DNA from: Acaryochloris marina MBIC11017
GTDB taxonomy: Bacteria > Cyanobacteriota > Cyanobacteriia > Thermosynechococcales > Thermosynechococcaceae
DNA: 32,000 nucleotides
Direction of reading: 5' to 3'
NCBI RefSeq assembly: GCF_000018105.1
Contig: NC_009926.1
Coordinates: 30,001 to 62,000, forward strand
Position 1 is the first letter of the stretch, and every line of letters begins with the position of its first letter. A model generated the notes under the pieces. That model saw only the letters and a list, made by a program, of their open reading frames with translations. It was not told the DNA's origin and did not search any database. Shown piece by piece: positions 9,379 to 30,440 of the stretch. Made by a program: the position numbers and the translations under genes.

Positions 9379-9461
9379 ATATTGTCTCTTCCTTAAAGGG
9401 ACACCCAGCTTAGGTTAAGTGCCGATAAATGAAGTTGATTTTATTAAGACAAAAAAAATAT

Positions 9462-9481
9462 TAAGTGTAGGGATACGGATA
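9462..9481 (+). repeat. Isolated iteron copy
   Basis: TAAGTGTAGGGATACGGATA, followed by TTGAGACAAT. That sequence is the inverted partner of ATTGTCTCA at 9520-9528. Confidence 0.75.
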
Positions 9482-9497
9482 TTGAGACAATCTATTT

Positions 9498-9927: not shown

Positions 9928-9943
9928 CCTCAAATAATGCACT

Positions 9944-18257: not shown

Positions 18258-18374
18258 TTAATGTCTTTCCAAAAAAATTACCATCTCAGCAACAAAACAA
18301 GCGATCGCACGTTTCTCCTGGGTATATCGCAGAGATTTCTCTAAGAGGATTCCTTGTATAGCGAAGTGATTCAT
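18258..18374 (-). pseudogene. ssb: Truncated ssb-like gene (first ~28 codons homologous to 23424-23744, then divergent and stopped)
   Basis: MNHFAIQGILLEKSLRYTQEKRAIACFV compares with MNTCAFQGILLEKSLRYTQERRAIAEFV. DNA similarity, including HIP1 GCGATCGCACG, ends near 18290, where AT-rich sequence begins. Confidence 0.7.
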
Positions 18375-18460
18375 AATTTCTGATTTTAAGGCTAGATTAA
18401 AGGCCCAGTAACGATTCGTGGAAAAAACTTTTACTTTCCCCAAAACCCAATTCTCTACAC

Positions 18461-18476
18461 TAGAATGGCCGCAAGT
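18461..18476 (+). promoter_or_regulatory. Conserved -10-like box plus leader TAGAATGGCCGCAAGT (cassette copy A)
   Basis: The same 16-mer with R/R variation recurs at 23832 and 29483, each 20-23 nt upstream of an ATG preceded by a GAGG/GGAG Shine-Dalgarno. Confidence 0.6.
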
Positions 18477-18496
18477 CCGATCCCAGGGAGGTTCTC

Positions 18497-19573
18497 ATGC
18501 CCTCTGCATCTATCGATAAGCTGAACCAGCTTAAAAGGCAGCTTCAGGATTGTATTAACCCCACTGCTGCCAAGCTACTCAAGAGTACGATTGCAAAGCT
18601 TGAAGCCCAGCTCAACTTAGGCCAGGACCAGATCGAGGTATCTAAGATAGACCAGATAAAGACAACTAACACGAATTCTTCCAAGGTAGCTCAACGGAAA
18701 GCTGCACACAAGAAATCAGAGAGGAAATCTAGGCAGAAGGCATCTCAAAAACAAAGAACAACGTTGAAAGCCCCTTCACTCAACAAAGTAGAGACAAAAC
18801 CATCAGTAATCTCTCAGAACAAGAAGCTCCCAATTCCAGCCCAGGAAAAGCCGCATGTTAAGACTGTAGACACTCCTAACAGTAAGAATTCAAATTCAAA
18901 AAATCAAAAACAAGCAAAGACAACATCAAAGTCAAAATCAGGTGAACTTTCCGAGAAACCTCCACTGCTCCCTGGAAATGGCACTCATCGGGCTTGGTGC
19001 CGTATTCCCGGAATTATTCGAGTACGAGAGAAGGAGTTTGAAGACGGGAGAACAAAGTCTCTGTATTTTGTGGAAGTTGATGGACAACCCATCAAACTCT
19101 TCCTATCGAAGAAGAGCTTTAAGAAAGTCAAGTCAGTTTTAGACAAACCAGTCATAGTGTTTGGTTATCCCAATATCATGAATGGTCAGATTACATCTTT
19201 GCAGTTAACAGGTACCTCGCAACGGGCATCAGCAAAGACAGAGAACTGGGTATTGATCGGAGTATGGAGAGCAGATAAGCAAAGGGTTTTGATACAGCGG
19301 GATCAGGAGCGCGACCCAGAGATTCATATCCGCCAGCATTCCCCGCTCGTGAGAGAGGACTGCCTGGAGAAGCTCAAGGATGGAAAGCTCTATGAGTTCA
19401 CCTGCCATAGAGATGGCGTTACCATCAAGGTTGTGGCTGTTGGAGAACGTTCAACGCAGAAGAGTAACGCTACTGAATCAACTGACCATGAAATCACTGA
19501 TCCAGAAATCAAAGATCAGGAAATCATTGACCAAGTCTTTTCTAAATTGGAGTCTTCCACTCTCCAGGTATGA
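18497..19573 (+). CDS. OrfX: uncharacterised protein (coiled-coil N-terminus, basic low-complexity linker, conserved ~190-aa C-domain)
   Basis: 358 aa, a paralog of 23870-24691. Shared blocks are MPSA[ST]IDKLNQLK, LLPGNGTHRAWCRIPGIIRV, W[VM][LM]IGVW, QR[VL]L[IV]QRDQ, QHSPLV[RK]E.CLEKL..GKLY. I recognise no known family. Confidence 0.75.
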   Translation: MPSASIDKLNQLKRQLQDCINPTAAKLLKSTIAKLEAQLNLGQDQIEVSKIDQIKTTNTNSSKVAQRKAAHKKSERKSRQKASQKQRTTLKAPSLNKVETKPSVISQNKKLPIPAQEKPHVKTVDTPNSKNSNSKNQKQAKTTSKSKSGELSEKPPLLPGNGTHRAWCRIPGIIRVREKEFEDGRTKSLYFVEVDGQPIKLFLSKKSFKKVKSVLDKPVIVFGYPNIMNGQITSLQLTGTSQRASAKTENWVLIGVWRADKQRVLIQRDQERDPEIHIRQHSPLVREDCLEKLKDGKLYEFTCHRDGVTIKVVAVGERSTQKSNATESTDHEITDPEIKDQEIIDQVFSKLESSTLQV

Positions 19574-20043
19574 TTGAATCTCGACCTTCCCTCAGCCTAA
19601 ACGTTCGACTAACCGAAGAGCAGCTTGGATTTCTCGACTATTTGTACCCCAATATTGATCCAGAAGATGCTTTGATCAGGATTCTTGAACGGGCTAGGAA
19701 CCGAGCTATCCGCAAGGCCGAACAGCAGGTACATATCTTACATCCACGCCAGGAAGAAGCCGAGCAACCTGAGACCTCCCCTGATCAGCCCATCAGCCAG
19801 GTTGATGAACAGGTGAAGAATCCGATTGGACAATTGCAAGAGCTTTGCCAGAAACAGCAAATATCGTTGCCCAGGTACGAGTTTTCAGAGATATCAGAAG
19901 GGTTTCGTTGTTTAGTACAGTCGATGGGATTACAGGGAGTAGGCGAGGGAGCATCGAAGAAGAAAGCGAAGATGGGGGCTGCGGAGATGTTGTTGAAGAG
20001 AGCAGAGGAAGGTCTATGTCACATTTCACCCTCTAAAGGCTAA
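19570..20043 (+). CDS. RHH (CopG-like) + dsRBD-like fusion protein
   Basis: The N-terminus SLNVRLTEEQLGFLDYLY..PEDALIRILERARNRAIRKAE has a strand-helix-helix pattern. An acidic linker follows. The C-terminus NPIGQLQELCQKQQISLPRYEF..FRCLVQSMGLQGVGEGASKKKAKMGAAEMLL fits the dsRBD consensus. The start overlaps the OrfX stop (ATGA). Confidence 0.75.
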   Translation: MIESRPSLSLNVRLTEEQLGFLDYLYPNIDPEDALIRILERARNRAIRKAEQQVHILHPRQEEAEQPETSPDQPISQVDEQVKNPIGQLQELCQKQQISLPRYEFSEISEGFRCLVQSMGLQGVGEGASKKKAKMGAAEMLLKRAEEGLCHISPSKG

Positions 20044-20155
20044 GGATGCGATTTTGAAGTGATGTGAACATTAAATTTATTTTTCGATTAAAGAAAAGCA
20101 AATTTCTTCATGGAAGAATTAAGACATACCTCTGAGCAAGTAATAGCATCATTCT

Positions 20156-20434
20156 GTGAACAATTTAGTCATATTCCCAGGACAATCTTCATCTGAAATA
20201 TATTTGTCGAATCCGAGTTCTTTTAGGGAGGCTAAAGAAGCGGCACATTGCTTGAAGAACGGACAACTGCTACTCGTCAATTTAGAAAATCTATCTCCAA
20301 AGTCGGCCCAGAGAATAAGTGATTATCTTGCAGGTTGTACTAACTCTTTATGTGGTGAATATACAGAAGTAGGAAATGGTGTTCATCTGTTTGCTCCTCA
20401 AACTTTTCCAATTGTGAAACAATCCAAGTATTGA
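20156..20434 (+). CDS. sepF: SepF-like (DUF552 core domain only) protein
   Basis: IYLSNPSSFREAKEAAHCLKNGQLLLVNLENLSPKSAQRISDYLAGCTNSLCGEYTEVGNGVHLFAPQTFPI is collinear with the SepF core as I recall it ([62 protein letters not shown]). It has a GTG start, no membrane-targeting N-helix, and the start is uncertain. Confidence 0.7.
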   Translation: MNNLVIFPGQSSSEIYLSNPSSFREAKEAAHCLKNGQLLLVNLENLSPKSAQRISDYLAGCTNSLCGEYTEVGNGVHLFAPQTFPIVKQSKY

Positions 20435-20461
20435 GACTTTAGTGCATTTGAGGATTCCCCA

Positions 20462-21013
20462 ATGACTCCCCCAATCGTCGCCCTCAACCCCAAGCCCGTA
20501 CCCAAGACCATCCCACAACTACCTAAGTCCGTCCCTTCCGCACCCAAACTGGTTAGTAGGACAGCATTTCCTAAGAAAACACCGGAAGGAACCCGGCCAG
20601 CAAAGCTAGAACAAGGGCATGAGGAGCTGGGAGGACTACGCCGGAGTTTTAGGCGTCCTTCTCAATCAACTAAACCTGAGTTCACTCCTAAGACACGATC
20701 CTCAGAAGCTCCCCAGGTCAATCAACCGAGAACCCCTAGAGTGTCGGCAGAGCTGGAGAGGCGATTCAGGAATCTGGAGCTGAAGCAGAAGAATCTGGTG
20801 GAGCAGACCAGGACGCGAGGGGAGCTGGAGTATCTGGCTGTTTCCAAAAATAGCTCAGGGAGATACTGGATTACAGTGGCGGGAACGGGGAAGCCCTTTG
20901 TGAGGAATACGTTTGCTTCGGCTGAGTTCAGTTGGGGAATCGATGTTGAGATTGAAGGCAAATTTGAGAATGGATATATGATTGAGCTCTGCCCATTGAA
21001 GACAATGAACTAG
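20462..21013 (+). CDS. OrfY: hypothetical protein with a Pro/Lys/Arg-rich disordered N-half and a compact C-domain
   Basis: 183-aa ORF with no recognised motif. A frameshifted paralog fragment lies at 27642-27879. Confidence 0.6.
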   Translation: MTPPIVALNPKPVPKTIPQLPKSVPSAPKLVSRTAFPKKTPEGTRPAKLEQGHEELGGLRRSFRRPSQSTKPEFTPKTRSSEAPQVNQPRTPRVSAELERRFRNLELKQKNLVEQTRTRGELEYLAVSKNSSGRYWITVAGTGKPFVRNTFASAEFSWGIDVEIEGKFENGYMIELCPLKTMN

Positions 21014-21041
21014 GTTCAGTAGATAATATAAAATTTCCAAC

Positions 21042-22799
21042 TTATGTATCCACTGAATAGCCTTCAAACCAAATGGAACGTTGTGGAAAAGGTATTGTAA
21101 TATTCGCCTGATCAAAGGCTTGTTTCAAACGACGTCGGTACTCTCGCCCCACATCCCAATGTTTCATTGGTTGGGTCTTAATGAGTATACGGATTGTTAT
21201 ACTGCTTTCCCCAAAGGCATCTACCCCTAAGATAGTTGGAGTTTCATTGATCAAAACTCCCCAAATAGGATCATGTTGTAGTTTAATTGCAACTTCTTCA
21301 ATCACTGCCATTGCTTGATCTAAGTCAGTGGAATAGGCTACCTCAATCCCTAGATTAATCCGGGACCATTGGTGAGTCAGGTTGATAGCAGTGGAAAAAC
21401 TACCATTGGCAATCGTGACAAGTTCACCTTCTAAAGTCCTCAACTGAGTAACTCGAAGGTTGAGATACTCAACTAATCCGACAATGCCATTGATTTTGAC
21501 TACATCATTCTTCGTGTATTGATCCTCCCAGAGAATCAGAAAACCATTGATAAAGTCCTTAATCAGATTCTGAGCACTTAACCCTACAATTCCTATGCCT
21601 GTTAGGACCAGTGCTAGTGGTGCTTGAATTGCATCCAGAAACATTAGAATGCCAATAATGATTACGACATAGCGTGTAACTTCCTGCAATACATTGGTTA
21701 TGGTGGGAGTTCTAAGAGTAATACGTTGGTTAGGTGTATGGTTAAAGGCATCATTCTCAGACCATCGATGCAACCCATAAACAATCAGAATATCAATGAT
21801 TTTTTTTGAAATACTTAGAACTAAGAGAATGCCAATAAAGCTGACAGGTACACCTACTAACCAAAGACCTGCTTGACGAGTTTGAGGAAATAACAGTAAT
21901 GCAAATATTGCAAAGCTCAACCAAATAGCTACTTGACTCCACCACAATAGAGATCGTAACGTTAGATTGATATTTTTTTGTTGCGGCAATGAAAGCTTTG
22001 GCAAGTGTTTTCTAATTGGGTGACCAATTGTTGTCTCCTGATAAGACTCAATGGAAGTCTGTCCATCAGGAAAATCATTATTTTGTGTTGTTGATGGATT
22101 TTTGATGTTTTTGGAATTAAGTTGTGTCCATTGGTGCTTGAGCAGAATTTGCAGATACCTCAGAATTAGGCTAATGATAATTACCGCTACCAAAATAATC
22201 AAAAGGTAAAAAAGTTGTTGCTTTAAATGCTCAGGCTGACGCTCTCTGTTCGCTTCTAAAAGTGCAGATTTGATCTTACTGGCCTTTACTTTTGCAATTT
22301 CAGAAATTGAGTAAGATGTACTATCAATTTGACGGTCTAGCTCTGTGATGGTCATAAGGGGTAGTTTCCAGTCTTTCCCCTGAGCGATTATCACTTCTTG
22401 GTTATTTAAGGTACTGGCTGTAACTCTAAGGGCATTAGGGTCAATACCACTATTTACGATTTTTTCTAAGTGGGTTTCAATTTCATTTACTCGCCATTCA
22501 ATGGGCAAGATATTGCTTTGACTGTCGGGATCATCAATCGCTGTGGGTGCAGCGACTTGAAATAGTGACACACCATCAAGGCGCACATTAGCAATGTGCA
22601 TATTGCCACGCTGGATGTAGTGAATATTAGGTTGCCGATTTGAACTCGTGTCAAGATGAGAGAAGCTGGGAAACTGGGCATGGGCTAATGACGGCCAGAA
22701 GTAGCTCATTCCGCAAATAAGGCAGCCGACGATTCCTGTAAGAAAGAATCTTGATAAACGCTGTAACTTTCTAGGATACATAGCTATGGTCAGTACCAC
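21042..22799 (-). CDS. MscS-family mechanosensitive ion channel
   Basis: 585 aa with multiple TM helices. The MscS core is IKDFINGFLILWEDQYTKNDVVKINGIVGLVEYLNLRVTQLRTLEGELVTIANGSF. Confidence 0.85.
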   Translation of the reverse strand: MVLTIAMYPRKLQRLSRFFLTGIVGCLICGMSYFWPSLAHAQFPSFSHLDTSSNRQPNIHYIQRGNMHIANVRLDGVSLFQVAAPTAIDDPDSQSNILPIEWRVNEIETHLEKIVNSGIDPNALRVTASTLNNQEVIIAQGKDWKLPLMTITELDRQIDSTSYSISEIAKVKASKIKSALLEANRERQPEHLKQQLFYLLIILVAVIIISLILRYLQILLKHQWTQLNSKNIKNPSTTQNNDFPDGQTSIESYQETTIGHPIRKHLPKLSLPQQKNINLTLRSLLWWSQVAIWLSFAIFALLLFPQTRQAGLWLVGVPVSFIGILLVLSISKKIIDILIVYGLHRWSENDAFNHTPNQRITLRTPTITNVLQEVTRYVVIIIGILMFLDAIQAPLALVLTGIGIVGLSAQNLIKDFINGFLILWEDQYTKNDVVKINGIVGLVEYLNLRVTQLRTLEGELVTIANGSFSTAINLTHQWSRINLGIEVAYSTDLDQAMAVIEEVAIKLQHDPIWGVLINETPTILGVDAFGESSITIRILIKTQPMKHWDVGREYRRRLKQAFDQANITIPFPQRSIWFEGYSVDT

Positions 22800-23011
22800 A
22801 TTCTCCTGCTTCTACTTATCCTTAGGTTACAGTCTCATATATGCTCAACATCCCCACTTTTCAGCCATCTTCCAGACTGACCATCCGCCTCGCTTCGGAC
22901 TTTGCAGCAAGATTTCTTGAGTTCTCCTAGAATCCAGGCCATAGCTTGGATTAGCTCTTTTTTATGGGTAGAATTTAATACAGAGACCTATCTTTTGTAG
23001 GCTTTGCAGAA

Positions 23012-23401: not shown

Positions 23402-23423
23402 AACAGAGTGGAAACCTTGATGA

Positions 23424-23744
23424 TTACTGATTAATCTGGACCGTGGAGTCGGTTGATCTTATCAACGACAAGGCTAGCCTGCTGCTCCACATATTCCTCG
23501 TTGCCGTCTTATGAGTGACTTTGTTTATCCTCAGTTGACCTTGCAAAATGAGTTGGTCGCCAGCTTGTAATGCATTGTGTGCTTTCTCCCCATTTTCTCC
23601 CCAATAGATGGCCTTGAGATTTTCCCTGGGGTCTTCTTCCCTCAGAGGGTTAATTTCAACGACGAATTCCGCGATCGCACGTCTTTCCTGGGTATATCGC
23701 AGGGATTTCTCCAGGAGTATTCCTTGGAAAGCACAAGTGTTCAT
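23424..23744 (-). CDS. ssb: SSB-like OB-fold protein (no acidic C-terminal tip)
   Basis: MNTCAFQGILLEKSLRYTQERRAIAEFVVEI...LKAIYWGENGEKAHNALQAGDQLILQGQLRINKV follows the cyanobacterial SSB N-terminal OB pattern. The C-terminus is atypical. Confidence 0.65.
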   Translation of the reverse strand: MNTCAFQGILLEKSLRYTQERRAIAEFVVEINPLREEDPRENLKAIYWGENGEKAHNALQAGDQLILQGQLRINKVTHKTATRNMWSSRLALSLIRSTDSTVQINQ

Positions 23745-23831
23745 AATTCATTGATTATTAGCCTGGGCATGCACTGTGTGACGTTTTCTGGCGATAATCC
23801 CGAATTTAACCCAAAGACCAACTTCATATCT

Positions 23832-23847
23832 TAGAATAGCCGCAAGT
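23832..23847 (+). promoter_or_regulatory. Conserved -10-like box plus leader TAGAATAGCCGCAAGT (cassette copy B)
   Basis: See 18461-18476. It lies 22 nt upstream of the ATG at 23870. Confidence 0.6.
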
Positions 23848-23869
23848 TTGCTCCTAGCGAGGTTCTCCC

Positions 23870-24691
23870 ATGCCCTCAGCAACTATCGACAAGCTCAACC
23901 AACTCAAAGTTCAGCTTGAGCAGTGCAACAATGACACTGCTGCTCTACTCCTAAAACGGACGATTGCAAAACTCGAATCTCAACTCCAGAGAGAGCAGCT
24001 TACAACACAGTCTGCCAAGTTGACTCCACAAGAACCGCCAAAAACCTCCCAGACTATTTTCAAACAACAATCTTCAGTCCAGGATAAGAAAGTAGTACCT
24101 CAACAACAGCAGACCACAAAAAATCTTCAGGCAAAATCCAAGCAGCGAAACCATCGCAAAAAGAGACGGCCTCTGCTCCCTGGCAATGGCACCCATCGTG
24201 CCTGGTGCAGGATTCCAGGAATCATCCGAGTTCAGGAAGCGGAAGCGGAGGCAGAACAGCCAGTATATTTCATAGAAATGGATGGTCATCAGCTCTCTTT
24301 GAGAGTAAAGAAGCGCTTCAGAAAATTGATAGGAGCGTCATTGGATACTCCTTTGATGGTGAAATGCTACCCTCAAATCATTGAAGGTCAAATTGTTTTC
24401 TTGCAGTTTTGTGGTGCTGCTGAATCGGCCCCTGAGACCCCAGAAGACTGGGTGATGATTGGGGTGTGGAATTCAGAGAATCAGAGAGTCTTAGTACAGC
24501 GTGATCAGAGATGCGATCAGAGCAGGCGCATCCTTCAACATTCTCCGCTAGTGAAAGAGGCATGTTTGGAGAAACTGGAGGGTGGAAAGCTTTATCGGTA
24601 TCAATGTCAGAGAGAGGGATTCACCGTGACGATCGTGGGTGTGGAGGTTGTTGAGGGTGAGGAAGGGGAAATTGTTCAGAAAGCCTCATAG
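23870..24691 (+). CDS. OrfX paralog (273 aa)
   Basis: Collinear with 18497-19573 but with a shorter Gln-rich linker. The conserved C-domain blocks are as listed for copy A. Confidence 0.75.
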   Translation: MPSATIDKLNQLKVQLEQCNNDTAALLLKRTIAKLESQLQREQLTTQSAKLTPQEPPKTSQTIFKQQSSVQDKKVVPQQQQTTKNLQAKSKQRNHRKKRRPLLPGNGTHRAWCRIPGIIRVQEAEAEAEQPVYFIEMDGHQLSLRVKKRFRKLIGASLDTPLMVKCYPQIIEGQIVFLQFCGAAESAPETPEDWVMIGVWNSENQRVLVQRDQRCDQSRRILQHSPLVKEACLEKLEGGKLYRYQCQREGFTVTIVGVEVVEGEEGEIVQKAS

Positions 24692-24742
24692 CTCTGAAAA
24701 ACCATTGAGCTATGAGATCAGATTCCATTATTCAAATTAGCT

Positions 24743-25012
24743 CTACCAACGATTTCCACCTCCTCTGTTCTCACGGGGTCTGGCTTTATTCACTTTCAGA
24801 GTGCGTCCCATCCATTCAGCACCCTCTAGCTCATCGATAGCTTTAGCTTCTTCAGCATCATTACCCATTTCGACAAAGGCGAATCCACGCTTGCGTCCTG
24901 TTTCTCGATCAGTAGGCATCTTGACCTGTTTGACAGTTCCATATTCAGCAAAAACGGCGTTTAGGTCTTGTTCTGTAGCATCAAAGGAGAGGTTACCAAC
25001 GTAAATCGACAT
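24743..25012 (-). CDS. rbp: RRM-type RNA-binding protein (cyanobacterial Rbp family)
   Basis: MSIYVGNLSF (RNP2) and KRGFAFVEM (RNP1), with a Gly-rich tail RENRGGGNRW. I chose the start at the internal Met (MSIYVGNL) of the track ORF. Confidence 0.9.
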   Translation of the reverse strand: MSIYVGNLSFDATEQDLNAVFAEYGTVKQVKMPTDRETGRKRGFAFVEMGNDAEEAKAIDELEGAEWMGRTLKVNKARPRENRGGGNRW

Positions 25013-25255
25013 GAAGTAATATCCAAGATTAATCATGCTCATGCTACCCGATCTCTATTTCCCCTTTAGGAGTAGAAAGCAATCTTTATGGAGATCATAG
25101 AATCGGAGAGGCAGTTTATGAATAGGACATGATTAAGGGACTTCAGTTAAATGTTGGGAGCTTAGCATCCATCAACCCCAATGCGTGACCCAAATTTTTT
25201 TGGTGATAGTGCTTTATCGCAAATCTTAGCTAAACACGTTTCATTTGGAGGTTCT

Positions 25256-25555
25256 ATGTCATCTTCTATCAATCAAGGTATATTGGTCACTGTCATTTGC
25301 GAAGCGGTTTTACAGCATCGTATCGTTCAATTACTAGATACTGTGGGTGCTTCAGGGTACACCATTATTCCAGCTCAAGGTGCTGGGAGTTATGGTCAGC
25401 GGATGGGAGATATTGAAGGGTTTAATACCAATATTCAAGTGAAAACAATTGTCTCACTAGAGGCATCTGATCAGATACTTGAGGATCTGCAGCAATACCG
25501 TGAATCACATGCACTGATCGCATTTCGACAACAAGTGGATGGATTATTTGATTAG
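25256..25555 (+). CDS. PII-like (GlnB-superfamily fold) small signalling-type protein
   Basis: ILVTVICEAVLQHRIVQLLDTVGASGYTIIPAQGAGSYGQRMGD...NIQVKTIVS fits the PII-like pattern. The start is at the internal ATG preceded by GGAGG. Confidence 0.55.
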   Translation: MSSSINQGILVTVICEAVLQHRIVQLLDTVGASGYTIIPAQGAGSYGQRMGDIEGFNTNIQVKTIVSLEASDQILEDLQQYRESHALIAFRQQVDGLFD

Positions 25556-25562
25556 GTTATTA

Positions 25563-25606
25563 ACATCCTCTCCTACTAACCTTTCAGGTACAGAGGGAGA
25601 GGATGT
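25563..25606 (+). terminator. Stem-loop with an 11-bp perfect stem (ACATCCTCTCC / GGAGAGGATGT), 8 nt after the PII-like stop
   Basis: Read directly. The loop is 22 nt and no U-tract follows, so intrinsic-terminator function is uncertain. Confidence 0.45.
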
Positions 25607-25727
25607 CAACTATACCCCAACGAAGATCTAGAAGACTGCCTGATCAAGCTTCTAGAGTGAGCCAAGAGACAATCCATCCGACGAGCAGAACAACAAACGA
25701 GGGTCTTTTATCTTGGTCATTTAAAAA

Positions 25728-26300
25728 ATGCTGAACGCTTCAATCTCACATGAAGATATCGATAATCAACAGGTCACGGCTATAATTTCACACTTGGTTC
25801 GGCTTGGTCGGGAGCAAGATTATGAAGAATGGATCCGTGGCTTCAGTGCTGTTGCTCAGCAGTTTCGTGGTTATGGGGGATTAAATATCCTTCGAACTAG
25901 TGAACAAGTTCATCCTGAATATGTCTTAGTGCTTCGCTTTGACTGCTCAAGCAATTTCAAAGATTGGCTAGAATCGGATACTCGAAGTGAATGGATTGAG
26001 CGTCTGCAGCCTTTGATAGCAAGACCAGAAGATATTCAAGCGATGACCGGATTAGAAACCTGGTTTGTGTTGCCTCAAAAGCTGCATAAGCCATCAATTC
26101 CTCGCTACAAAATGGTGTTAGTAACCTGGCTTGGAGTATTTATTGTTCTAGCGATCCTGACGCGGATTTTGGCTCCTCTTCTATCGATGTTACCTCTGTT
26201 GCTCAATCAGTTGGTTACAACTGGGTTAGTTGCATTACTACTCACCTATGTCGTGATGCCACAGCTAATGAAGCTCTTTCGTCGATGGCTATCGTCTTGA
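25728..26300 (+). CDS. ABM (antibiotic biosynthesis monooxygenase-like) domain protein with C-terminal TM helices
   Basis: There is a ferredoxin-like Dabb pattern (VTAIISHLVRLGREQDYEEWIRGF...YVLVLRFDCSSNFKDWLESD), then two hydrophobic helices (MVLVTWLGVFIVLAIL, LVTTGLVALLLTYVVM). Confidence 0.6.
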   Translation: MLNASISHEDIDNQQVTAIISHLVRLGREQDYEEWIRGFSAVAQQFRGYGGLNILRTSEQVHPEYVLVLRFDCSSNFKDWLESDTRSEWIERLQPLIARPEDIQAMTGLETWFVLPQKLHKPSIPRYKMVLVTWLGVFIVLAILTRILAPLLSMLPLLLNQLVTTGLVALLLTYVVMPQLMKLFRRWLSS

Positions 26301-26391
26301 CGATCACTCCATTCAATCAAATCCTCCATAAGTTTTCAATCGGTTCAAATCCCTTCACCGTATTCTCAAACATGGCTTCCACTCGTTCAAA

Positions 26392-26958
26392 TCAACCTGC
26401 TTCAATTAGCACCGATAAAGTGTTTCTAGCAAACCCTGCGCCATCTGATTTACCTTCAATAGTGGCCATCAAGCTAGCACCTCCAATCAACAGTAAATAT
26501 TGCTGTGAAAATGCTTCAGGCTCCCGAACACCTGCTTCAGTCGCTAACCGCATAACATACTGTCGAATCGATTCTCTCACACTCATCGAGATGTGATGGG
26601 CCGGATGAGAGGCATCTGCAATTTCCAAGACAACGTTGATGAACGGACATCCTCGGAAGCTTGGGTCAGCATACCACTCTTCAAGTACATCAAAGGTTGC
26701 TAGTAAACGGTCCTTCGCAGTATTACCCCGGTCTTCTACAGCCACTTCAAACCACTCTAGCCACTGCATGGCGCGATGCTTCATGACTGCTTCAATCAGT
26801 TCATCTTTAGAGGCAAACCAACGATAAAGCGTACGCTTGGCAACACCAGAGGTAGCAATAACTTCATTGATACCAACATGCTGAGTCCCTTTCTGATAGA
26901 ACAAATCAGAAGCTGTATTCAGAATCTTTCGCTGAGTTTCATTGAGTTTTTGATTCAT
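26392..26958 (-). CDS. TetR-family transcriptional regulator
   Basis: N-terminal HTH ILNTASDLFYQKGTQHVGINEVIATSGVAKRTLYRWFASKDELI. Confidence 0.9.
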   Translation of the reverse strand: MNQKLNETQRKILNTASDLFYQKGTQHVGINEVIATSGVAKRTLYRWFASKDELIEAVMKHRAMQWLEWFEVAVEDRGNTAKDRLLATFDVLEEWYADPSFRGCPFINVVLEIADASHPAHHISMSVRESIRQYVMRLATEAGVREPEAFSQQYLLLIGGASLMATIEGKSDGAGFARNTLSVLIEAG

Positions 26959-26970
26959 TTCTGATTAAGT

Positions 26971-27030
26971 AGACAAGTTTGTCTCCATAGAGTTACGATA
27001 TCACCAACCGCAGGGAGACAGACTTGTCTC
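26971..27030. promoter_or_regulatory. Two related palindromes in the TetR/CMD divergent intergenic region (candidate TetR operators)
   Basis: AGACAAgtTTGTCT at 26971-26984 and GAGACAgactTGTCTC at 27015-27030. Confidence 0.55.
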
Positions 27031-27059
27031 TCAATAGATATAGTTATGAAACTGAACTT

Positions 27060-27617
27060 ATGGACTTCAAAATTTACACCCTTGAGACAGCTCCAGATGA
27101 GTCTAAGGGAGCACTCCAACAGGCTGAACAAACGTTCAAATTTATCCCAAATCTGGAAGGAATCCTTGCAGAATCTCCAGCTACCTTAAAAAGTGGTATG
27201 GCACTTTGGGATCTATTCGAGACAACCAGTTTTACTCCCATTGAGCAACAAGTTATTTATCTCACTGCTAACTATGAGCACGAATGTAGTTATTGCGTGG
27301 CTGCACACTCTGGTTTAGCCAAGATGGTTGGAATGTCTGCAGAAGATATTGAGGCAATTCGCAATGGCAAACCCCTAATAGACCAAAAGTTGCAGGCACT
27401 ACGACATTTCACCAAAAGAATGATTTCAGAAAGAGGTTGGGTAGGTGATGAGGAGATTGAAGAATTTTTGGCAGCAGGGTATACCCGGCAACAAATTTTA
27501 GAAGTGATTTTAGGTATTGCCGTAAAAGTCATTCACAATTACACAAATCATATTGCTAAAACTCCTTTAGATAAGGCTTTTCAGCCCTATACATGGTCAA
27601 AGCCTTCTGTCCCTTAG
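27060..27617 (+). CDS. Carboxymuconolactone decarboxylase / AhpD-like family protein
   Basis: CxxC-His motif EHECSYCVAAHS. The gene is divergent from the TetR gene. I preferred the ATG at 27060 over the TTG at 27024 given in the track. Confidence 0.8.
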   Translation: MDFKIYTLETAPDESKGALQQAEQTFKFIPNLEGILAESPATLKSGMALWDLFETTSFTPIEQQVIYLTANYEHECSYCVAAHSGLAKMVGMSAEDIEAIRNGKPLIDQKLQALRHFTKRMISERGWVGDEEIEEFLAAGYTRQQILEVILGIAVKVIHNYTNHIAKTPLDKAFQPYTWSKPSVP

Positions 27618-27641
27618 AAAGCCATCAACATAACATGCTAT

Positions 27642-27879
27642 ATGATGCAGTTTGTTGAATTAGAAACCCCAATCTTTAGCCTCAACCCCAGCCCCCCGAC
27701 TGCCCAATCCTGACACTCCAATTCCCAAGCTCTCAGATCAGACAGCATTTCCCGAAAAGTACCTGAAAGCACATGGCAAAATGAGCGGGAGCCAGGATCT
27801 GCAAAGTGGAAAAGAACCATCGAAATTCACGGCTATCTTCCAGACCACTCCAAAATTATTTATACAATGTCCCTTTTAA
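27642..27879 (+). pseudogene. Frameshifted, truncated paralog of OrfY (20462-21013)
   Basis: Frame 1 reads MMQFVELETPIFSLNPSPPTAQS*, compared with OrfY MTPPIVALNPKPVPKT. From 27721 the +1 frame reads IPKLSDQTAFPEKYLKAHGK..., compared with OrfY PKLVSRTAFPKKTPEGT, and stops at 27877-27879. Confidence 0.6.
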
Positions 27880-27961
27880 TGAACGCATGCTGGTCAGGGT
27901 ATCTTTGAATTCAGTTCAGATTTGTCCACCTCTTATAAAAGTCTGATTAATCGATTTTTTG

Positions 27962-28771
27962 CTACCTTAGTTCAAAGTAACGGTTCCAAATCTGATTCAA
28001 GGCAAGATGGATAAATATTGAAGTGGTCTTAACATGTTTTTTCCAAAACTTTGTCGGTTCTTGAAAGAACCTATAGATCCACTCAAAACCTATTTCCTTC
28101 ATCCAAGTGGGTACGCTGGAATTCAAACCTGCATAAGCTGGAAAGGCTCCACCAACACCGATCATGACTGCCTCAATCTGATTCTTATGTTCAGCCATCC
28201 AATATTCTTGTTTAGGAGAGCTATAGGCAATCATCACCAGCCCTGCACCACTGTGTTTAATCCGCTGTATCAGCTTTTGCCTTTGATCTAGTGTTAAGGG
28301 TCGAATAGGTAAAGGTTCCATTCCTGCAATCAGCAGCTCTGGAAAATCTTGTGCAAGTCGATGTCTCATCTTTTGCAGTATCAGGCACTGTGAACCTAGA
28401 AAGAAAATGCTGACCTTCTGCTGAGAAGCTTTCTGACAAAGGCATTGCATTAAATTTAAGCTCGTTACTATTTCTTGTGTTTTCACTCCCATTCTCTTCA
28501 GCAGCCACACCAATGGCATAGCATTTGGTGTGACTATGTCAGAATCGTTCAGCACTTCACCAAAGCTAGGTTTTTGATGAGCATCAACTAGCATATGAGT
28601 ATTTGCAATGCAGACCATTTTACTTTTGTGTTGCTTTGCCCAAACTAGGATTACATTAACCAGCACATCAATAGGGGCTGCAGTGATGAGAGAGCCAATG
28701 ACATCTATTCGAAGCGGTTCCATATCAGTTGAGAATAGCTCTGAATTAGGATCTTTGGCTAGCATTTCCAT
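27962..28771 (-). CDS. WecG/TagA/CpsF-family (GT26) glycosyltransferase
   Basis: GVGGAFPAYAGLNSSVPTWMKEIGFEWIYRFFQEPTKFWKKH matches the family C-terminal signature. The start is placed at the internal Met(s) after GAAGGAG; the track ORF extends to 28861. Confidence 0.8.
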   Translation of the reverse strand: MEMLAKDPNSELFSTDMEPLRIDVIGSLITAAPIDVLVNVILVWAKQHKSKMVCIANTHMLVDAHQKPSFGEVLNDSDIVTPNAMPLVWLLKRMGVKTQEIVTSLNLMQCLCQKASQQKVSIFFLGSQCLILQKMRHRLAQDFPELLIAGMEPLPIRPLTLDQRQKLIQRIKHSGAGLVMIAYSSPKQEYWMAEHKNQIEAVMIGVGGAFPAYAGLNSSVPTWMKEIGFEWIYRFFQEPTKFWKKHVKTTSIFIHLALNQIWNRYFELR

Positions 28772-29482
28772 AGACTCCTTCAAATAAAAAGTAGGCAAAA
28801 AAGCTACTTGGGAGGAAGGGATAAAAGCTGTAACACTTTCTACTAATAGAGCAATAAGCATAATTGAGGATTAAAGCTTGGCTCTATTTCCAGTGATATT
28901 AGCGACCTCAAGAAGAAGAATATTTTTAAATGCTTAGCATGTCAGTCTAAAACGGCAAGGAAAAAGTGAAAATTATGTAGAAGACAGTGATACGCTATAT
29001 GGAAAAATATGTAATTAAGTAGAATAGAAAGATATAAGATTTATTCTCTCAATATACGTAAATAATTTTAAATCATATTCTTATGAATAAGCTTATTCAG
29101 CTAGTGATCTAAATATAGACACCAGTTAGAATTCTTGCTAGATTGAGATTTATCCCAATAGAGTAGTCAGTAGCTAAGTTAATTTACGTTTTTTACTTCA
29201 TGATTTTAGCCTTTTCATTCTGTTATAAAAATAGATAAATGGAGAATTGTTAAAAAGATTTGTAGACTTTTTAGATAGTCAGTATTTAGCAAGTATAAAG
29301 ACAGATAACTAGGGATTGATTAAAGTCGGTTTAACTAAGAAATTATCTCATAGACTTTATCTTATAGAATTGCTTAAAAGGTACAGTAGCTCATAATAAT
29401 CCCAATCTTAAACCTTGGTTAAAGAGTAAGTGATGTTTATTAGTAAAGACCTCGTTCTTTCTCAACTTTGAAGTCTCTGCAT

Positions 29483-29498
29483 TAGAATAACCGCAAGT
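29483..29498 (+). promoter_or_regulatory. Conserved -10-like box plus leader TAGAATAACCGCAAGT (cassette copy C)
   Basis: See 18461-18476. It lies 22 nt upstream of the ATG at 29521. Confidence 0.55.
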
Positions 29499-29520
29499 CT
29501 GCATCTATGGAGCTTCCTCC

Positions 29521-29559
29521 ATGCTCTCTGTGACTATCGAAAAGCTCAAAATAGATTTG
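29521..29559 (+). pseudogene. Remnant of the OrfX N-terminus (13 codons), read through into unrelated sequence
   Basis: MLSVTIEKLKIDL compares with MPSATIDKLNQLK, and similarity ends after about 13 codons. The 148-aa track ORF 29521..29967 is therefore probably chimeric. Confidence 0.4.
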
Positions 29560-29742
29560 ACATTCTCGCGTGTTGACCGCAAGATAGGATACCCAGCCTT
29601 AAGTGCATGCGCTCAATATCGAGCAAACTATAGGGTCGAAGAAAGTTGTTCGACACTAACTGGTTTGATCAAAGAGGGCGTCAATTTTCGTGCTTATTTT
29701 TTGTATATAGACCATCGATACCGACCTCACTGTTGTTCAAGG

Positions 29743-29967
29743 ATGACCGAATTTATGTCTACGACGATTAGCATTCTGGCTGGTATCCCTGAGGAGCTTC
29801 ATGAGACGTTGATAAATTACTTGGAAGACCATCCTGATTGGGATCAAGATCGGGTTTTCTCAGCGGCACTATCATTATTTCTGATGCAGTACGGTCAATC
29901 AGACCGTAGGACAGCTCGTGTTTATCTGGATAGTCTATTTAAGAAAGATTTGCCAACCGCTTGTTAA
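29743..29967 (+). CDS. Small conserved cyanobacterial protein (DUF2811-like, identified from memory)
   Basis: MTEFMSTTISILAGIPEELHETLINYLEDHPDWDQDRVFSAALSLFLMQYG. The internal ATG is at 29743 (or 29755). The stop TAA overlaps the next ATG (TAATG). Confidence 0.5.
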   Translation: MTEFMSTTISILAGIPEELHETLINYLEDHPDWDQDRVFSAALSLFLMQYGQSDRRTARVYLDSLFKKDLPTAC

Positions 29968-30440
29968 TGCCGACCCCCCAGCCAATCTCCAGTCTAACCA
30001 TCCACCTCACCTCTGAACACCTTGGCTTCCTCGCCTATCTCTACCCCAAAGAAGATCCAGAAGACGCACTGATCAAGCTCCTCGATAGTGCCCGAACCCG
30101 AGCCATTCGCAGAGCAGAACAGCAAGTGAGAGTCCTTCATCTAGACCAGGAAGAACCCGAGGCCCCCGAGGAAGACCCCGAGGAACCCGTGAACTTGTCT
30201 GGTGATGTGGTGGAGAATCCGATTGGGACATTGCAGGAGTTGTGTCAACGGCAGCAAATCTCTATGCCCAGCTATGAGTTTGAGACAATACCAGAAGGAT
30301 TTCGCTGTTCAGTGCAGGCGATGGGCTTGCGGGGAGTTGGTGAGGGGGTGTCGAAGAAGAAAGCGAAGATGGGGGCTGCGAGGAAATTGTTGGGAAGGGG
30401 TTGTTTTGGGATGGATAGAGAATCCCAGCAATCAGAATAA
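29967..30440 (+). CDS. RHH + dsRBD-like fusion protein, paralog of 19570-20043
   Basis: SLTIHLTSEHLGFLAYLYPKEDPEDALIKLLDSARTRAIRRAEQQV, then an acidic linker, then NPIGTLQELCQRQQISMPSYEF..FRCSVQAMGLRGVGEGVSKKKAKMGAARKLL. Confidence 0.75.
   Translation: MPTPQPISSLTIHLTSEHLGFLAYLYPKEDPEDALIKLLDSARTRAIRRAEQQVRVLHLDQEEPEAPEEDPEEPVNLSGDVVENPIGTLQELCQRQQISMPSYEFETIPEGFRCSVQAMGLRGVGEGVSKKKAKMGAARKLLGRGCFGMDRESQQSE

What the first reader, a model, noticed from the sequence alone, without database searches (positions are those of the whole stretch)
18258..30440. Uncharacterised cassette present in three mosaic copies: conserved promoter/leader, OrfX, RHH-dsRBD protein, divergent SSB-like gene
Copy A (18258-21013) runs: ssb-like remnant (-), TAGAATGGCCGCAAGT, OrfX 358 aa, RHH-dsRBD 157 aa (ATGA overlap at 19570-19573), SepF-like, OrfY. 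Copy B (23424-24691) runs: intact ssb-like (-), TAGAATAGCCGCAAGT, OrfX paralog 273 aa, and then stops. Copy C is split. It has an OrfY pseudogene at 27642-27879. At 29483-30440 it has TAGAATAACCGCAAGT, a 13-codon OrfX remnant, a DUF2811-like gene and an RHH-dsRBD paralog (TAATG overlap). Every recognisable domain binds nucleic acid (OB-fold, RHH, dsRBD), yet I know of no described system with this composition. Repeated retention on one replicon next to T4SS and rep genes suggests a functional plasmid module rather than junk. Possible roles include establishment after transfer, copy or partition control, a TA-like function, or anti-defence.
Basis: partly seen in the sequence, partly recalled or inferred. 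Interest (0 to 1): 0.8.

Follow-up and report, generated by a model that had tools for sequence, protein, structure and literature searches.

The report
Shuffled nucleic-acid-binding gene block, Acaryochloris plasmids
Three half-decayed copies of a gene block found only on Acaryochloris megaplasmids encode proteins that bind single- or double-stranded nucleic acid, including a new protein family with two OB folds like a two-domain SSB; the block is real and under selection, but it is a shuffled piece of plasmid backbone, not a proven new system.

Summary
TAGAATNNCCGCAAGT occurs exactly three times (0 expected), each before an OrfX start, and the ORFs and domain calls (SSB, dsRBD, SepF, DUF2811) are confirmed. 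The RHH call is not.

Corrections:
- Copy B does not stop after OrfX. It continues with an RRM gene, a PII-like gene and a remnant of the dsRBD gene.
- Copy C is a clean ~1.55-kb deletion of an OrfX–RRM–DUF2811–dsRBD block seen intact on other plasmids.
- The OrfY "pseudogene" is only weakly supported.

The window is an Acaryochloris marina megaplasmid. In PLSDB the block's genes occur only on Acaryochloris plasmids, in many mosaic orders, and all intact copies are under purifying selection (dN/dS 0.07–0.46).

OrfX belongs to a family with no Pfam, NCBIfam or PDB sequence match. It has a helical hairpin, a basic linker and two OB folds (pLDDT 92). Its best structural matches are two-OB SSBs. 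Distant homologues are lone chromosomal genes in other cyanobacteria.

OrfX's promoter and N-terminal "head" also front a plasmid RNB–dsRBD ribonuclease.

Function is inferred only: single-strand and duplex binders, acting on either RNA or ssDNA. There is no evidence for toxin–antitoxin, partition or defence roles.

The parts
18267..18374 (-). Copy A: remnant of the ssb-like gene (first 36 codons only; the ORF lies at 18258-18443)
   Evidence: tblastn with the intact copy-B Ssb matches residues 1-36 at 69% identity. DNA repeat D7.
18437..18496 (+). Copy A: conserved OrfX promoter/leader (CCCAAA box, TAGAAT at 18461-18466, GGAGG before the ATG)
   Evidence: Motif search. Conserved in all 9 OrfX loci aligned. 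Its promoter function is inferred, not shown.
18497..19573 (+). OrfX_A, 358 aa: N-terminal helical hairpin (aa 3-51), basic disordered linker (aa ~52-155), two-OB-fold domain (aa ~152-320, about 18950-19456), acidic tail
   Evidence: ORF; family alignment; AF2 models; Foldseek; dN/dS 0.14-0.17.
19570..20043 (+). dsRBD_A, 157 aa: conserved N-terminal 55-aa domain (RHH unproven), acidic linker, dsRBD (aa ~82-145). Its start overlaps the OrfX_A stop (ATGA).
   Evidence: Pfam dsrm 25.5 bits; profile against PDB 1e-13; family alignment.
20156..20434 (+). SepF-like protein, 92 aa (SepF core domain only)
   Evidence: Pfam SepF 67.5 bits. SepF paralogues recur near ssb/OrfX in L004, L015 and L001.
20462..21013 (+). 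OrfY, 183 aa, family of unknown function. The usual form is ~206 aa and lies directly after the dsRBD gene.
   Evidence: tblastn finds 33 places on 17 Acaryochloris plasmids. Adjacent to the dsRBD gene in L012-L015. No Pfam match. dN/dS 0.14-0.46.
23424..23744 (-). Copy B: intact ssb-like gene, 106 aa, a single OB fold with no acidic C-terminal tail
   Evidence: Pfam SSB 32.5 bits against a cut-off of 26. Below the NCBIfam SSB cut-offs. PHROG SSB E 5.5e-5.
23808..23869 (+). Copy B: conserved OrfX promoter/leader (TAGAAT at 23832-23837)
23870..24691 (+). OrfX_B, 273 aa: hairpin, short basic linker, two OB folds (aa 97-263, about 24158-24658), acidic tail
   Evidence: AF2 domain model with pLDDT 91.8 and pTM 0.85. 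Foldseek top hits are two-OB SSBs. Exact hit on a 374,161-bp contig.
24743..25042 (-). Copy B: RRM-type RNA-binding protein (Rbp). The true start is probably the internal ATG near 25012.
   Evidence: Pfam RRM_1 75.9 bits. Lies directly downstream of OrfX, convergent, in 6 of the 9 aligned OrfX loci. dN/dS 0.04-0.14.
25181..25555 (+). Copy B: PII/DUF3240-like protein lying between Rbp and the dsRBD remnant
   Evidence: Pfam P-II 51.8 bits. The same arrangement is seen in pMB02, L004.
25610..25714 (+). Copy B: remnant of the N-terminal part of the dsRBD gene.
   Evidence: Repeat D6 at 74% identity to 30039-30142; alignment; tblastn covers residues 27-61 at 66% identity. The same remnant is present in L004.
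27673..27775 (+). Possible remnant of the 5' end of an OrfY gene (weak)
   Evidence: tblastn pairwise E 4e-4 to 5e-3 over 22-38 residues of the proline-rich N-terminus.
29459..29549 (+). Copy C: OrfX promoter/leader (TAGAAT at 29483-29488) plus the first ~10 OrfX codons, ending at the deletion junction 29545-29549
   Evidence: blastn: 29480-29549 matches L005 4961-5029 and 29545-30380 matches L005 6581-7388. About 1.55 kb (the OrfX body plus Rbp) is missing.
29755..29967 (+). Copy C: DUF2811 protein, 70 aa
   Evidence: Pfam DUF2811 95 bits. Precedes the dsRBD gene in L005, L006, L016 and L001. dN/dS 0.07.
29967..30440 (+). dsRBD_C, about 157 aa from the ATG at 29967. Its start overlaps the DUF2811 stop (TAATG).
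   Evidence: Pfam dsrm 25.5 bits; 61% identical to dsRBD_A.

Best explanation
WHAT IT IS (well supported)
The region holds three paralogous, differently decayed copies of a gene block that belongs to the shared backbone of Acaryochloris megaplasmids.
- The fullest version of the block reads: ssb-like (-) | conserved promoter/leader -> OrfX | RRM protein (-) | DUF2811 -> dsRBD protein -> OrfY, with SepF nearby.
- Copies spread by inter-plasmid recombination and then lose parts. Copy A lost most of ssb and has OrfX joined directly to the dsRBD gene. Copy B lost nearly all of its dsRBD gene. Copy C lost the OrfX body and the RRM gene in one 1.55-kb deletion.
- Across the three copies, the window still keeps at least one intact copy of every gene.
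- None of the block's proteins matches an enzyme family. Their recognisable domains bind nucleic acid (OrfY and DUF2811 have no recognisable function).
- OrfX is a new sequence family. It has an N-terminal helical hairpin, a basic disordered linker and two OB folds packed as in two-OB SSBs.

HOW IT MOST LIKELY WORKS (inferred)
- OrfX pairs through its hairpin, giving a four-OB binder of single-stranded nucleic acid.
- It works with the dsRBD protein. The two genes are translationally coupled in copy A.
- It is co-regulated with a plasmid RNB-dsRBD exoribonuclease that carries the same promoter and the same N-terminal 'head'.
- I therefore favour a trans-acting, plasmid-encoded set that handles partly duplex RNA, such as plasmid transcripts or antisense pairs (about 0.4), over a purely ssDNA role (about 0.3).
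For: IDENTITY AND DISTRIBUTION
- The window is 98% identical to A. marina pREC3.
- In PLSDB, OrfX occurs on 10 plasmids, dsRBD on 12 and OrfY on 17, all of them Acaryochloris.
- None of the OrfX or dsRBD hits in the 5.8-billion-protein search lies on a chromosome-sized contig.

MOSAIC ORDERS AND DECAY
- tblastn map of 16 loci.
- Copy C deletion junction, and collinearity of copy B with pMB02 including the same dsRBD remnant.
- Frequent inter-plasmid recombination and loss of duplicates is documented for this genus (PMC3156569).

SELECTION
- dN/dS is 0.07-0.46 for all intact genes.

ORFX FOLD
- Domain model with pLDDT 91.8 and pTM 0.85, and beta1-3/helix/beta4-5 topology twice.
- Best PDB match is the two-OB Deinococcus SSB 3UDG: E 1.9e-3, prob 1.0, TMq 0.49.
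- Best viral matches are phage two-OB SSBs with TMq 0.50-0.54.
- Hairpin helices at residues 3-17 and 22-51.

LINKS TO RNA
- The dsRBD call is firm.
- An RRM gene lies next to OrfX in 6 of 9 loci.
- OrfX_A and dsRBD_A overlap by ATGA.
- A 772-779-aa RNB + dsrm ribonuclease carries the OrfX head (50% identity over 119 aa) and the same TAGAAT..GCAAGT leader in two strains.
- Seven Acaryochloris plasmids carry this head + RNB form.
- The head is under purifying selection, dN/dS 0.21.

PROMOTER/LEADER
- Conserved in all 9 OrfX loci, even where ssb has been replaced.
Against: - No experiment or expression data were examined. The promoter, dimerisation, binding specificity and every protein-protein contact are inferred.
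- The Foldseek E-values are marginal (about 2e-3), and OB folds do not distinguish RNA from DNA binding.
- The top structural matches and the divergent ssb-like neighbour point to ssDNA rather than RNA.
- Synteny is seen only within one genus and among recent paralogues, so it may reflect shared descent and not shared function.
- Remote OrfX homologues have none of these neighbours.
- RNB ribonucleases without CSD domains exist without any OrfX on 172 plasmids of many phyla, and in head-less form on 3 Acaryochloris plasmids. The nuclease therefore does not need OrfX.
- ssb is intact in only 4 of 9 OrfX loci.
- OrfY and DUF2811 remain without any functional clue.
Confidence: 0.5

Rival explanations
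1. ssDNA-centred reading. OrfX and the tail-less Ssb-like protein form a plasmid-specific SSB pair (two OB folds plus one, or an OrfX dimer with four). It coats plasmid ssDNA during replication, RecA-mediated inter-plasmid recombination, or entry by conjugation. The RRM, dsRBD, DUF2811 and OrfY genes are unrelated passengers in the same backbone block.
For: - The top structural matches in two independent libraries are two-OB SSBs.
- OrfX shares a conserved divergent intergenic region with a gene that passes the Pfam SSB cut-off.
- The block lies 4-6 kb from ParB-like genes on several plasmids and about 8 kb from iteron-like repeats here.
- OrfX has an acidic C-terminal tail, as SSBs do.
- Plasmid recA and RecD-like genes sit beside the head-bearing RNB gene.
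- ssb is a typical plasmid leading-region gene (PMC11541004).
Against: - There is no sequence homology between OrfX and SSB families.
- ssb is decayed or replaced in 5 of 9 OrfX loci while OrfX stays intact.
- OrfX's own links are to RNA-binding parts: translational coupling to a dsRBD protein, an N-terminal head shared with an exoribonuclease, and an RRM neighbour.
Confidence: 0.3
2. Conjugative leading-region (establishment or anti-defence) genes. The block would be expressed early in a recipient cell to protect and establish the incoming single strand.
For: - It contains an ssb-like gene.
- It lies on plasmids of which some are typed conjugative (MOBF/MPF_T).
- ParB-N-domain genes and a VirB4-like ATPase lie upstream in the window.
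Against: - 6 of 10 OrfX plasmids and 7 of 12 dsRBD plasmids are typed non-mobilizable.
- The genes lie on both strands, unlike the co-oriented genes of leading regions.
- There are no PADLOC or anti-defence family hits.
- No oriT or relaxase was located near the block.
- Several copies occur per plasmid, scattered.
Confidence: 0.1
3. No joint function. The block is a hitch-hiking set of independently useful (or dosage-buffering) paralogues of host nucleic-acid-binding proteins (Ssb, Rbp, SepF, PII, DUF2811) plus orphan genes. They are kept together only because whole segments are copied between plasmids.
For: - The copies are recent (dS 0.03-0.9 between many plasmids).
- Gene order is highly variable.
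- Genus-wide duplication by inter-plasmid and plasmid-chromosome recombination is documented (PMC3156569, PMC11086944).
- Remote OrfX homologues stand alone.
Against: - OrfX/dsRBD and DUF2811/dsRBD have overlapping stop and start codons.
- The OrfX head and a dsRBD occur together in one RNB polypeptide.
- dsRBD-OrfY adjacency holds in at least 5 loci (window copy A has SepF between them), and OrfX-Rbp adjacency holds in 6.
- OrfX, the dsRBD protein and OrfY have no chromosomal paralogue detected.
Confidence: 0.1

Closest known systems
Two-OB-fold SSBs (Deinococcus-Thermus SSB, PDB 3UDG; phage two-OB SSBs)
   Same: Two OB folds in one chain with a similar relative arrangement (TMq 0.49-0.54, prob 1.0). 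Likely dimer giving four OB folds. Short acidic C-terminal tail.
   Different: No detectable sequence homology to PF00436 or any PDB chain. It carries an extra N-terminal helical hairpin and a long basic disordered linker. It lacks the canonical DDDIPF-type tip. Its substrate is unknown.
Plasmid-borne and naturally truncated SSB-like proteins (F-plasmid Ssb; the tail-less cyanobacterial Ssb-like proteins are cited from my own knowledge)
   Same: The ssb-like gene has a single OB fold that passes the Pfam SSB cut-off, is plasmid-encoded, and has no acidic tail.
   Different: It scores far below the NCBIfam SSB cut-offs (18 against 54 bits). It is often decayed in the block.
dsRBD proteins (RNase III C-terminal domain; Loquacious/R2D2/TRBP cofactors)
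   Same: A clear dsRBD in a small protein with no match to any enzyme family, like the eukaryotic cofactors.
   Different: It is bacterial and plasmid-encoded, and carries a unique conserved 55-aa N-terminal domain. It scores much better against animal cofactors (1e-13) than against bacterial RNase III (0.02). No partner nuclease has been shown.
RNase II/R family (CSD1-CSD2-RNB-S1)
   Same: The related plasmid protein has an RNB catalytic domain (239 bits). OrfX's two OB folds also align, weakly, with the RNase II/R cold-shock domains (E 0.08-0.3).
   Different: The plasmid enzyme has no CSD or S1 domains, but has the OrfX head and a dsRBD instead. OrfX has no nuclease domain. A complex of the two is only a hypothesis.
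Plasmid 'stealth' homologues of host nucleic-acid-binding proteins (H-NS-like Sfh of R27, Pmr of pCAR1; cited from my own knowledge)
   Same: Large low-copy plasmids carrying their own copies of abundant host DNA- or RNA-binding proteins (here Ssb, Rbp, SepF, PII).
   Different: OrfX, the dsRBD protein and OrfY have no host paralogue. No fitness-cost data exist.

Membership tests
SSB family (PF00436), for the ssb-like gene at 23424-23744 | OB-fold sequence match above the curated cut-off | tested here: met
   Pfam SSB 32.5 bits against a cut-off of 26. PHROG SSB E 5.5e-5.
SSB family (PF00436), for the ssb-like gene at 23424-23744 | Match to a curated bacterial SSB model at its cut-off, and an acidic C-terminal interaction tail | tested here: not met
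   TIGR00621 scores 18.3 against 53.95 and PRK07459 scores 14.9 against 161. The protein ends ...STDSTVQINQ with no acidic tip.
Two-OB-fold SSB (Deinococcus-Thermus type), for OrfX | Two OB folds in one polypeptide | tested here: met
   AF2 model with pLDDT 91.8. The best Foldseek hits in PDB and BFVD are two-OB SSBs.
Two-OB-fold SSB (Deinococcus-Thermus type), for OrfX | Sequence membership in the SSB family | tested here: not met
   No Pfam, NCBIfam or PDB sequence hit. hhalign against the neighbouring Ssb-like protein gives probability 0.9%.
Two-OB-fold SSB (Deinococcus-Thermus type), for OrfX | Binds ssDNA cooperatively | not testable with these tools
   Needs EMSA or fluorescence titration with ssDNA and ssRNA.
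dsRBD (PF00035), for 19570-20043 and 29967-30440 | Match to the dsrm model above its cut-off | tested here: met
   25.5 bits against a cut-off of 23 for both. The family profile hits Loqs, R2D2 and TRBP at 1e-13 to 1e-9.
Ribbon-helix-helix (CopG/Arc/MetJ) domain, for the N-terminus of the dsRBD proteins | Sequence or profile match to an RHH family or to a solved RHH structure | tested here: inconclusive
   No RHH hit in Pfam at E<=10 or in PDB with the N-terminal profile or the whole profile. The strand-helix-helix pattern is visible only by eye.
SepF (PF04472), for 20156-20434 | Match to the SepF core domain | tested here: met
   67.5 bits against a cut-off of 27. At 92 aa it is barely longer than the 72-residue SepF core model, leaving little room for an N-terminal membrane-binding segment (read from the sequence).
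DUF2811 (PF10929), for 29755-29967 | Match above the cut-off | tested here: met
   95 bits against a cut-off of 26.6.
Plasmid leading-region gene set | Lies next to oriT on the first-transferred side, with co-oriented genes, on conjugative plasmids | tested here: not met
   The genes lie on both strands. 6 of 10 OrfX plasmids are typed non-mobilizable. oriT itself was not located, so its position relative to the block is untested.
Toxin-antitoxin, partition or anti-phage defence systems | A toxin or antitoxin domain, a ParA/ParB-type NTPase-adaptor pair, or a match to a known defence protein | tested here: not met
   The cassette proteins have no such Pfam or NCBIfam hits. PADLOC gives 0 hits for 10 proteins.
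RNase II/R family, for the related head-bearing protein L002:6001-8319 | RNB catalytic domain, flanked by CSD and S1 domains | tested here: inconclusive
   The RNB domain is clearly present, 238.7 bits. No CSD or S1 domains were detected; it has the OrfX head and a dsrm domain instead. This gene is not inside the window.

The most novel reading that the evidence does not exclude
OrfX and the CSD-less plasmid RNB-dsRBD exoribonuclease are two halves of one machine. They share a promoter, and they share an N-terminal coiled-coil 'head' through which they pair. OrfX then supplies in trans the two OB folds that RNase II/R enzymes normally carry as CSD1 and CSD2. The small dsRBD protein and the RRM protein feed it partly duplex RNA or R-loop substrates. 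This would be a plasmid-encoded RNA surveillance or antisense-control system specific to megaplasmids, built around a new OB-fold family and a dsRBD that resembles animal RNAi cofactors more than bacterial RNase III.
Probability: 0.15. Interest if true: 0.7.

Novelty: new variant of a known kind. Interest (0 to 1): 0.45.

Why it matters
- It defines a new protein family, the OrfX domain. There are 41 representatives among 1.8 billion clusters, and the members that could be traced to a named organism or genome bin are cyanobacterial. It has no Pfam, NCBIfam or PDB relative, and a confident model places it among two-OB single-strand binders.
- It shows that a promoter plus an N-terminal 'head' is reused on two different proteins: OrfX and an RNB-dsRBD ribonuclease.
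- It gives a concrete example of how Acaryochloris megaplasmids copy, shuffle and erode backbone segments while keeping one working copy of each gene in this stretch of the plasmid.
- If the RNA-handling reading is right, it would point to plasmid-encoded post-transcriptional control in cyanobacteria, where stand-alone bacterial dsRBD proteins are almost unstudied.
- If it is only an SSB-like accessory, it is a modest addition to known plasmid biology.

Tried and rejected
- A genome-contig scan with the Acaryochloris OrfX alignment found nothing. Acaryochloris seems absent or masked in that collection. A scan with a subfamily alignment worked.
- The full-length OrfX_A AF2 model was poor (pLDDT 51) because of the disordered linker. 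Only the trimmed domain with remote homologues gave a usable model.
- Rfam gave no hit in the whole window.
- The sigma-70 and terminator scan was uninformative: counts equalled shuffled expectation, and only copy C pairs TAGAAT with a -35-like hexamer.
- PADLOC gave nothing, and PHROGs gave only an SSB match for the ssb-like gene and one weak hit to a family of unknown function.
- RHH searches for the dsRBD N-terminus failed.
- BLASTP of DUF2811 against the dsRBD protein, to test whether they share an RHH-like domain, gave no alignment.
- Literature: 'DUF2811' appears in no paper in the library. Two Acaryochloris duplication papers do not mention ssb, dsRNA-binding or RNA-binding genes. A search for plasmid RNB ribonucleases found nothing relevant.
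- The neighbourhoods of remote OrfX homologues (ABC transporter, Ycf66, PfkB, DAO, psbQ, DNA ligase) gave no functional clue.
- The contexts of CSD-less RNB genes on Pseudomonas and Rhodococcus megaplasmids lie near dnaB, dnaG and mIHF but showed no OrfX-like partner.
- Rejected: 'OrfX supplies CSDs that the RNB enzyme needs' as the main explanation. Head-less and OrfX-less RNB-dsRBD enzymes are common.

Full report
**1. What is in the sequence**

The 16-nt motif TAGAATNNCCGCAAGT occurs exactly three times in the 32-kb window, at 18461, 23832 and 29483, all on the + strand. None is expected in shuffled sequence, and relaxing to two mismatches adds no further site. Each motif lies about 20 nt before an ATG that opens an OrfX-type reading frame.

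The four-base ATGA overlap between OrfX_A and the dsRBD gene follows from those coordinates. So does the TAATG overlap between DUF2811 and the second dsRBD gene, and both agree with the annotation of a near-identical plasmid.

- SSB for the 106-aa protein: 32.5 bits, cut-off 26.
- dsrm for both 157-159-aa proteins: 25.5 bits, cut-off 23.
- SepF: 67.5 bits.
- DUF2811: 93 bits.

A profile of the dsRBD family hits Loquacious, R2D2 and TRBP at 1e-13 to 1e-9, so that call is firm.

The RHH label for the N-terminal 55 residues is not supported by any search.

**2. Corrections to the anatomy**

Copy B does not stop after OrfX_B. It continues with three further elements:
- a convergent RRM-type RNA-binding gene (24743-25042, Pfam RRM_1 76 bits);
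- a PII/DUF3240-like gene (25181-25555);
- a 105-bp remnant of the N-terminal part of the dsRBD gene (25610-25714).

The whole stretch 23449-25561, plus the remnant, is collinear with plasmid pMB02 of Acaryochloris sp. 'Moss Beach'.

Copy C is a deletion product. Window 29480-29549 aligns with the promoter and first ~10 OrfX codons of three other plasmids. Window 29545-30380 aligns with the region upstream of DUF2811 through the dsRBD gene of the same plasmids. The 1.55 kb in between, which holds the OrfX body and the RRM gene, is missing.

The proposed OrfY pseudogene at about 27650-27880 has only a short, weak match to the proline-rich N-terminus of OrfY relatives.

**3. Where it comes from and how widespread it is**

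The window is 98% identical to A. marina MBIC10699 plasmid pREC3. OrfX_B matches exactly a protein on a 374,161-bp contig.

In PLSDB, all matches are on Acaryochloris plasmids:
- OrfX: 10 plasmids, 18 places.
- dsRBD protein: 12 plasmids, 19 places.
- OrfY: 17 plasmids, 33 places.

In the 5.8-billion-protein search every hit for OrfX and for the dsRBD protein was Acaryochloris or Acaryochloridaceae, and none lay on a chromosome-sized contig.

A tblastn map of 16 loci shows recurring pieces in varying order:
- [ssb(-)] OrfX Rbp(-) DUF2811 dsRBD: L005, L006, L016.
- SepF x(-) ssb(-) OrfX: L004, L015.
- dsRBD followed directly by OrfY: L012-L015.
- OrfX-dsRBD-SepF-OrfY: the window and L001 (pREC3), and by hit coordinates also pREC2.

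ssb is intact in 4 of 9 OrfX loci, a remnant in 3, and replaced in 2.

The promoter/leader (CCCAAA... TAGAAT.GCYGCAAGT ... GAGG.. ATG) is conserved in all nine, even where ssb is gone.

All intact genes evolve under purifying selection, with dN/dS 0.07-0.46. Many copies are recent (dS 0.03-0.9).

Published work shows that most Acaryochloris duplicates arise by recombination between plasmids and that most are later lost (PMC3156569). The three copies here fit that picture. They decay in a complementary way, so the window still holds at least one intact ssb, OrfX, Rbp, DUF2811, dsRBD, SepF and OrfY.

**4. What OrfX is**

OrfX has three regions:
- a conserved ~45-residue N-terminal helical hairpin (helices 3-17 and 22-51);
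- a variable lysine/glutamine/serine-rich linker;
- a conserved ~170-residue C-terminal domain.

An exhaustive profile search of 1.8 billion cluster representatives found only 41 proteins. The remote ones share only the C-terminal domain, with the motifs GNGxH, YP, W..IG.W, VQRD and Y...C.R.G. Some of them carry an Ada-like zinc-finger N-terminus instead of the hairpin.

No Pfam, NCBIfam or PDB sequence relative exists.

With the remote homologues in the alignment, AlphaFold2 gives a confident model (pLDDT 91.8, pTM 0.85) made of two beta1-3/helix/beta4-5 units, that is, two OB folds.

Foldseek results:
- PDB: first is the two-OB Deinococcus SSB bound to ssDNA (E 1.9e-3, prob 1.0, TMq 0.49). 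It is followed by Teb1 AB, IF1/eIF1A and the cold-shock domains of RNase II/R.
- Viral library: first are phage two-OB SSBs (TMq 0.50-0.54), followed by baculovirus LEF-3.

OrfX is therefore a new sequence family with an SSB-like two-OB architecture. There is no sequence similarity to the neighbouring Ssb-like protein.

Remote homologues sit singly in ordinary chromosomal contexts in Gomphosphaeria, Geminocystis, Cyanobacterium and related genome bins. None of the cassette genes lies nearby.

**5. An unexpected link: the OrfX 'head' on a ribonuclease**

tblastn with OrfX also hit the first 119 residues of a 772-aa plasmid protein. That protein consists of:
- the OrfX hairpin and basic linker, 50% identical;
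- an RNB exoribonuclease domain, 239 bits;
- a C-terminal dsRBD.

It has no cold-shock or S1 domains.

The orthologue in strain S15 has the same head. It also has the same upstream leader, CCCAAA... TAGAATGACTGCAAGT.

Seven Acaryochloris plasmids carry head + RNB, and three carry a head-less RNB. Six of the seven head + RNB plasmids also carry OrfX. The head is under purifying selection in the ribonuclease (dN/dS 0.21).

CSD-less RNB ribonucleases are widespread on large plasmids of many phyla: 172 PLSDB records.

So a promoter plus leader plus head unit is used on two different proteins. The head is associated with a dsRBD twice: once by fusion in the RNB enzyme, and once by translational coupling of OrfX_A and dsRBD_A.

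**6. How it most likely works**

Shown:
- the gene content and the folds;
- the decay history;
- the selection on intact genes;
- the restriction to Acaryochloris plasmids.

Inferred:
- OrfX pairs through its hairpin and binds single-stranded nucleic acid with four OB folds.
- It acts with the dsRBD protein.
- It is co-regulated with the RNB-dsRBD ribonuclease.

Three observations favour RNA as the target: the dsRBD, the RRM neighbour and the ribonuclease link. Three favour ssDNA: the SSB-like fold matches, the divergent ssb-like gene, and the position near ParB-like genes and iterons. I put RNA handling at about 0.4 and an ssDNA role at about 0.3. The rest is split between leading-region establishment and 'no joint function'.

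An important caveat applies. Synteny within one genus, among recently copied segments, is weak evidence for functional coupling.

There is no support for a toxin-antitoxin, partition or defence role:
- no matching domains;
- no PADLOC hits;
- most carrier plasmids are typed non-mobilizable.

**7. Comparison with known systems, and verdict**

The closest known things are:
- two-OB SSBs: same fold plan, no sequence relation, extra head and linker;
- tail-less and plasmid SSBs, for the ssb-like gene;
- dsRBD cofactors and RNase III;
- RNase II/R, for the related nuclease;
- plasmid-borne copies of host nucleic-acid-binding proteins.

The cassette as a fixed 'system' is not established.

The real novelty has three parts:
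- the OrfX family itself;
- the reused promoter/head unit;
- a bacterial stand-alone dsRBD family with a unique N-terminal domain.

I rate this as a new variant of a known kind, with interest 0.45. It is not negligible, because it yields a new fold-assigned family and a testable link to plasmid RNA metabolism.

Noticed in passing
window 9312-10005: Iteron-like repeats: six 78-bp tandem units (98-99% identical in the core) preceded by three 22-bp units that share the motif TAGTGC..ACGGAGA. They lie between two large ORFs with no confident family (7131-9212, and 9944-12067 with a C-terminal HTH_3). Probably the plasmid's replication origin and Rep genes.
   Followed up: partly
L002:6001-8319 and L028:1750-4089 (-); not in the window: A plasmid RNB exoribonuclease without cold-shock or S1 domains. 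It carries the OrfX N-terminal hairpin, basic linker and promoter/leader, plus a C-terminal dsRBD. Related CSD-less RNB genes occur on 172 PLSDB plasmids from Rhodococcus, Pseudomonas, Streptomyces and others, near dnaB, dnaG or mIHF in the two loci examined.
   Followed up: partly
window 19813-20010 and 30210-30404 (dsRBD parts): The family profile of the Acaryochloris dsRBD scores far better against animal RNAi cofactors (Loquacious, R2D2, TRBP; 1e-13 to 1e-9) than against bacterial RNase III (0.02). Some A. marina strains, such as MBIC10699, come from ascidians. A eukaryote-like origin is conceivable but untested, and PDB is biased towards eukaryotic dsRBDs.
   Followed up: no
window 29521-29967: The deletion that made copy C left one open frame of 148 codons. 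It runs from the OrfX start codon through former intergenic sequence into DUF2811. DUF2811 may therefore be made as an N-terminally extended fusion driven by the OrfX promoter, or from its own ATG at 29755.
   Followed up: no
window 12274-13341 and 13472-14029 (-): Two tandem paralogous genes with a ParB N-terminal domain (DNA repeat D4, 72% identity). The longer one has a ~200-aa C-terminal extension of unknown function. The same ParB pair lies upstream of the cassette in L001 and L005.
   Followed up: no
window 30432-31205 (-): A 257-aa ORF with weak HNH (E 0.008) and IscB-like (E 1.5e-4) matches. Its 3' end overlaps the end of dsRBD_C by 9 bases. In pREC3 an IS630 element is inserted between the two genes.
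   Followed up: no
window 14400-16973 (+) and 17081-17809 (-): A large ORF and a 242-aa ORF lie directly upstream of copy A. Their counterparts in the same order in pMB03 (L016) are annotated NB-ARC/TPR proteins and a class I SAM-dependent methyltransferase. Synteny around the cassette therefore extends beyond it.
   Followed up: no
L027:2501-2746; L004:9230-9418: OrfY-like fragments lie at or just past the 3' end of plasmid rpaB (ycf27-type response regulator) paralogues. In S15 this rpaB directly follows the head-bearing RNB gene. RpaB paralogues recur near the cassette.
   Followed up: partly
P0059, P0061, P0074, P0076 (remote OrfX-domain proteins); L017-L026: In Geminocystis and Cyanobacterium relatives, the two-OB domain is preceded by a Cys-rich Ada-like zinc-finger domain (the Pfam hit is weak and seen in only one member) and a very long lysine/glutamate-rich linker, not by the helical hairpin. 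The OB module has therefore been combined with different N-terminal modules.
   Followed up: partly
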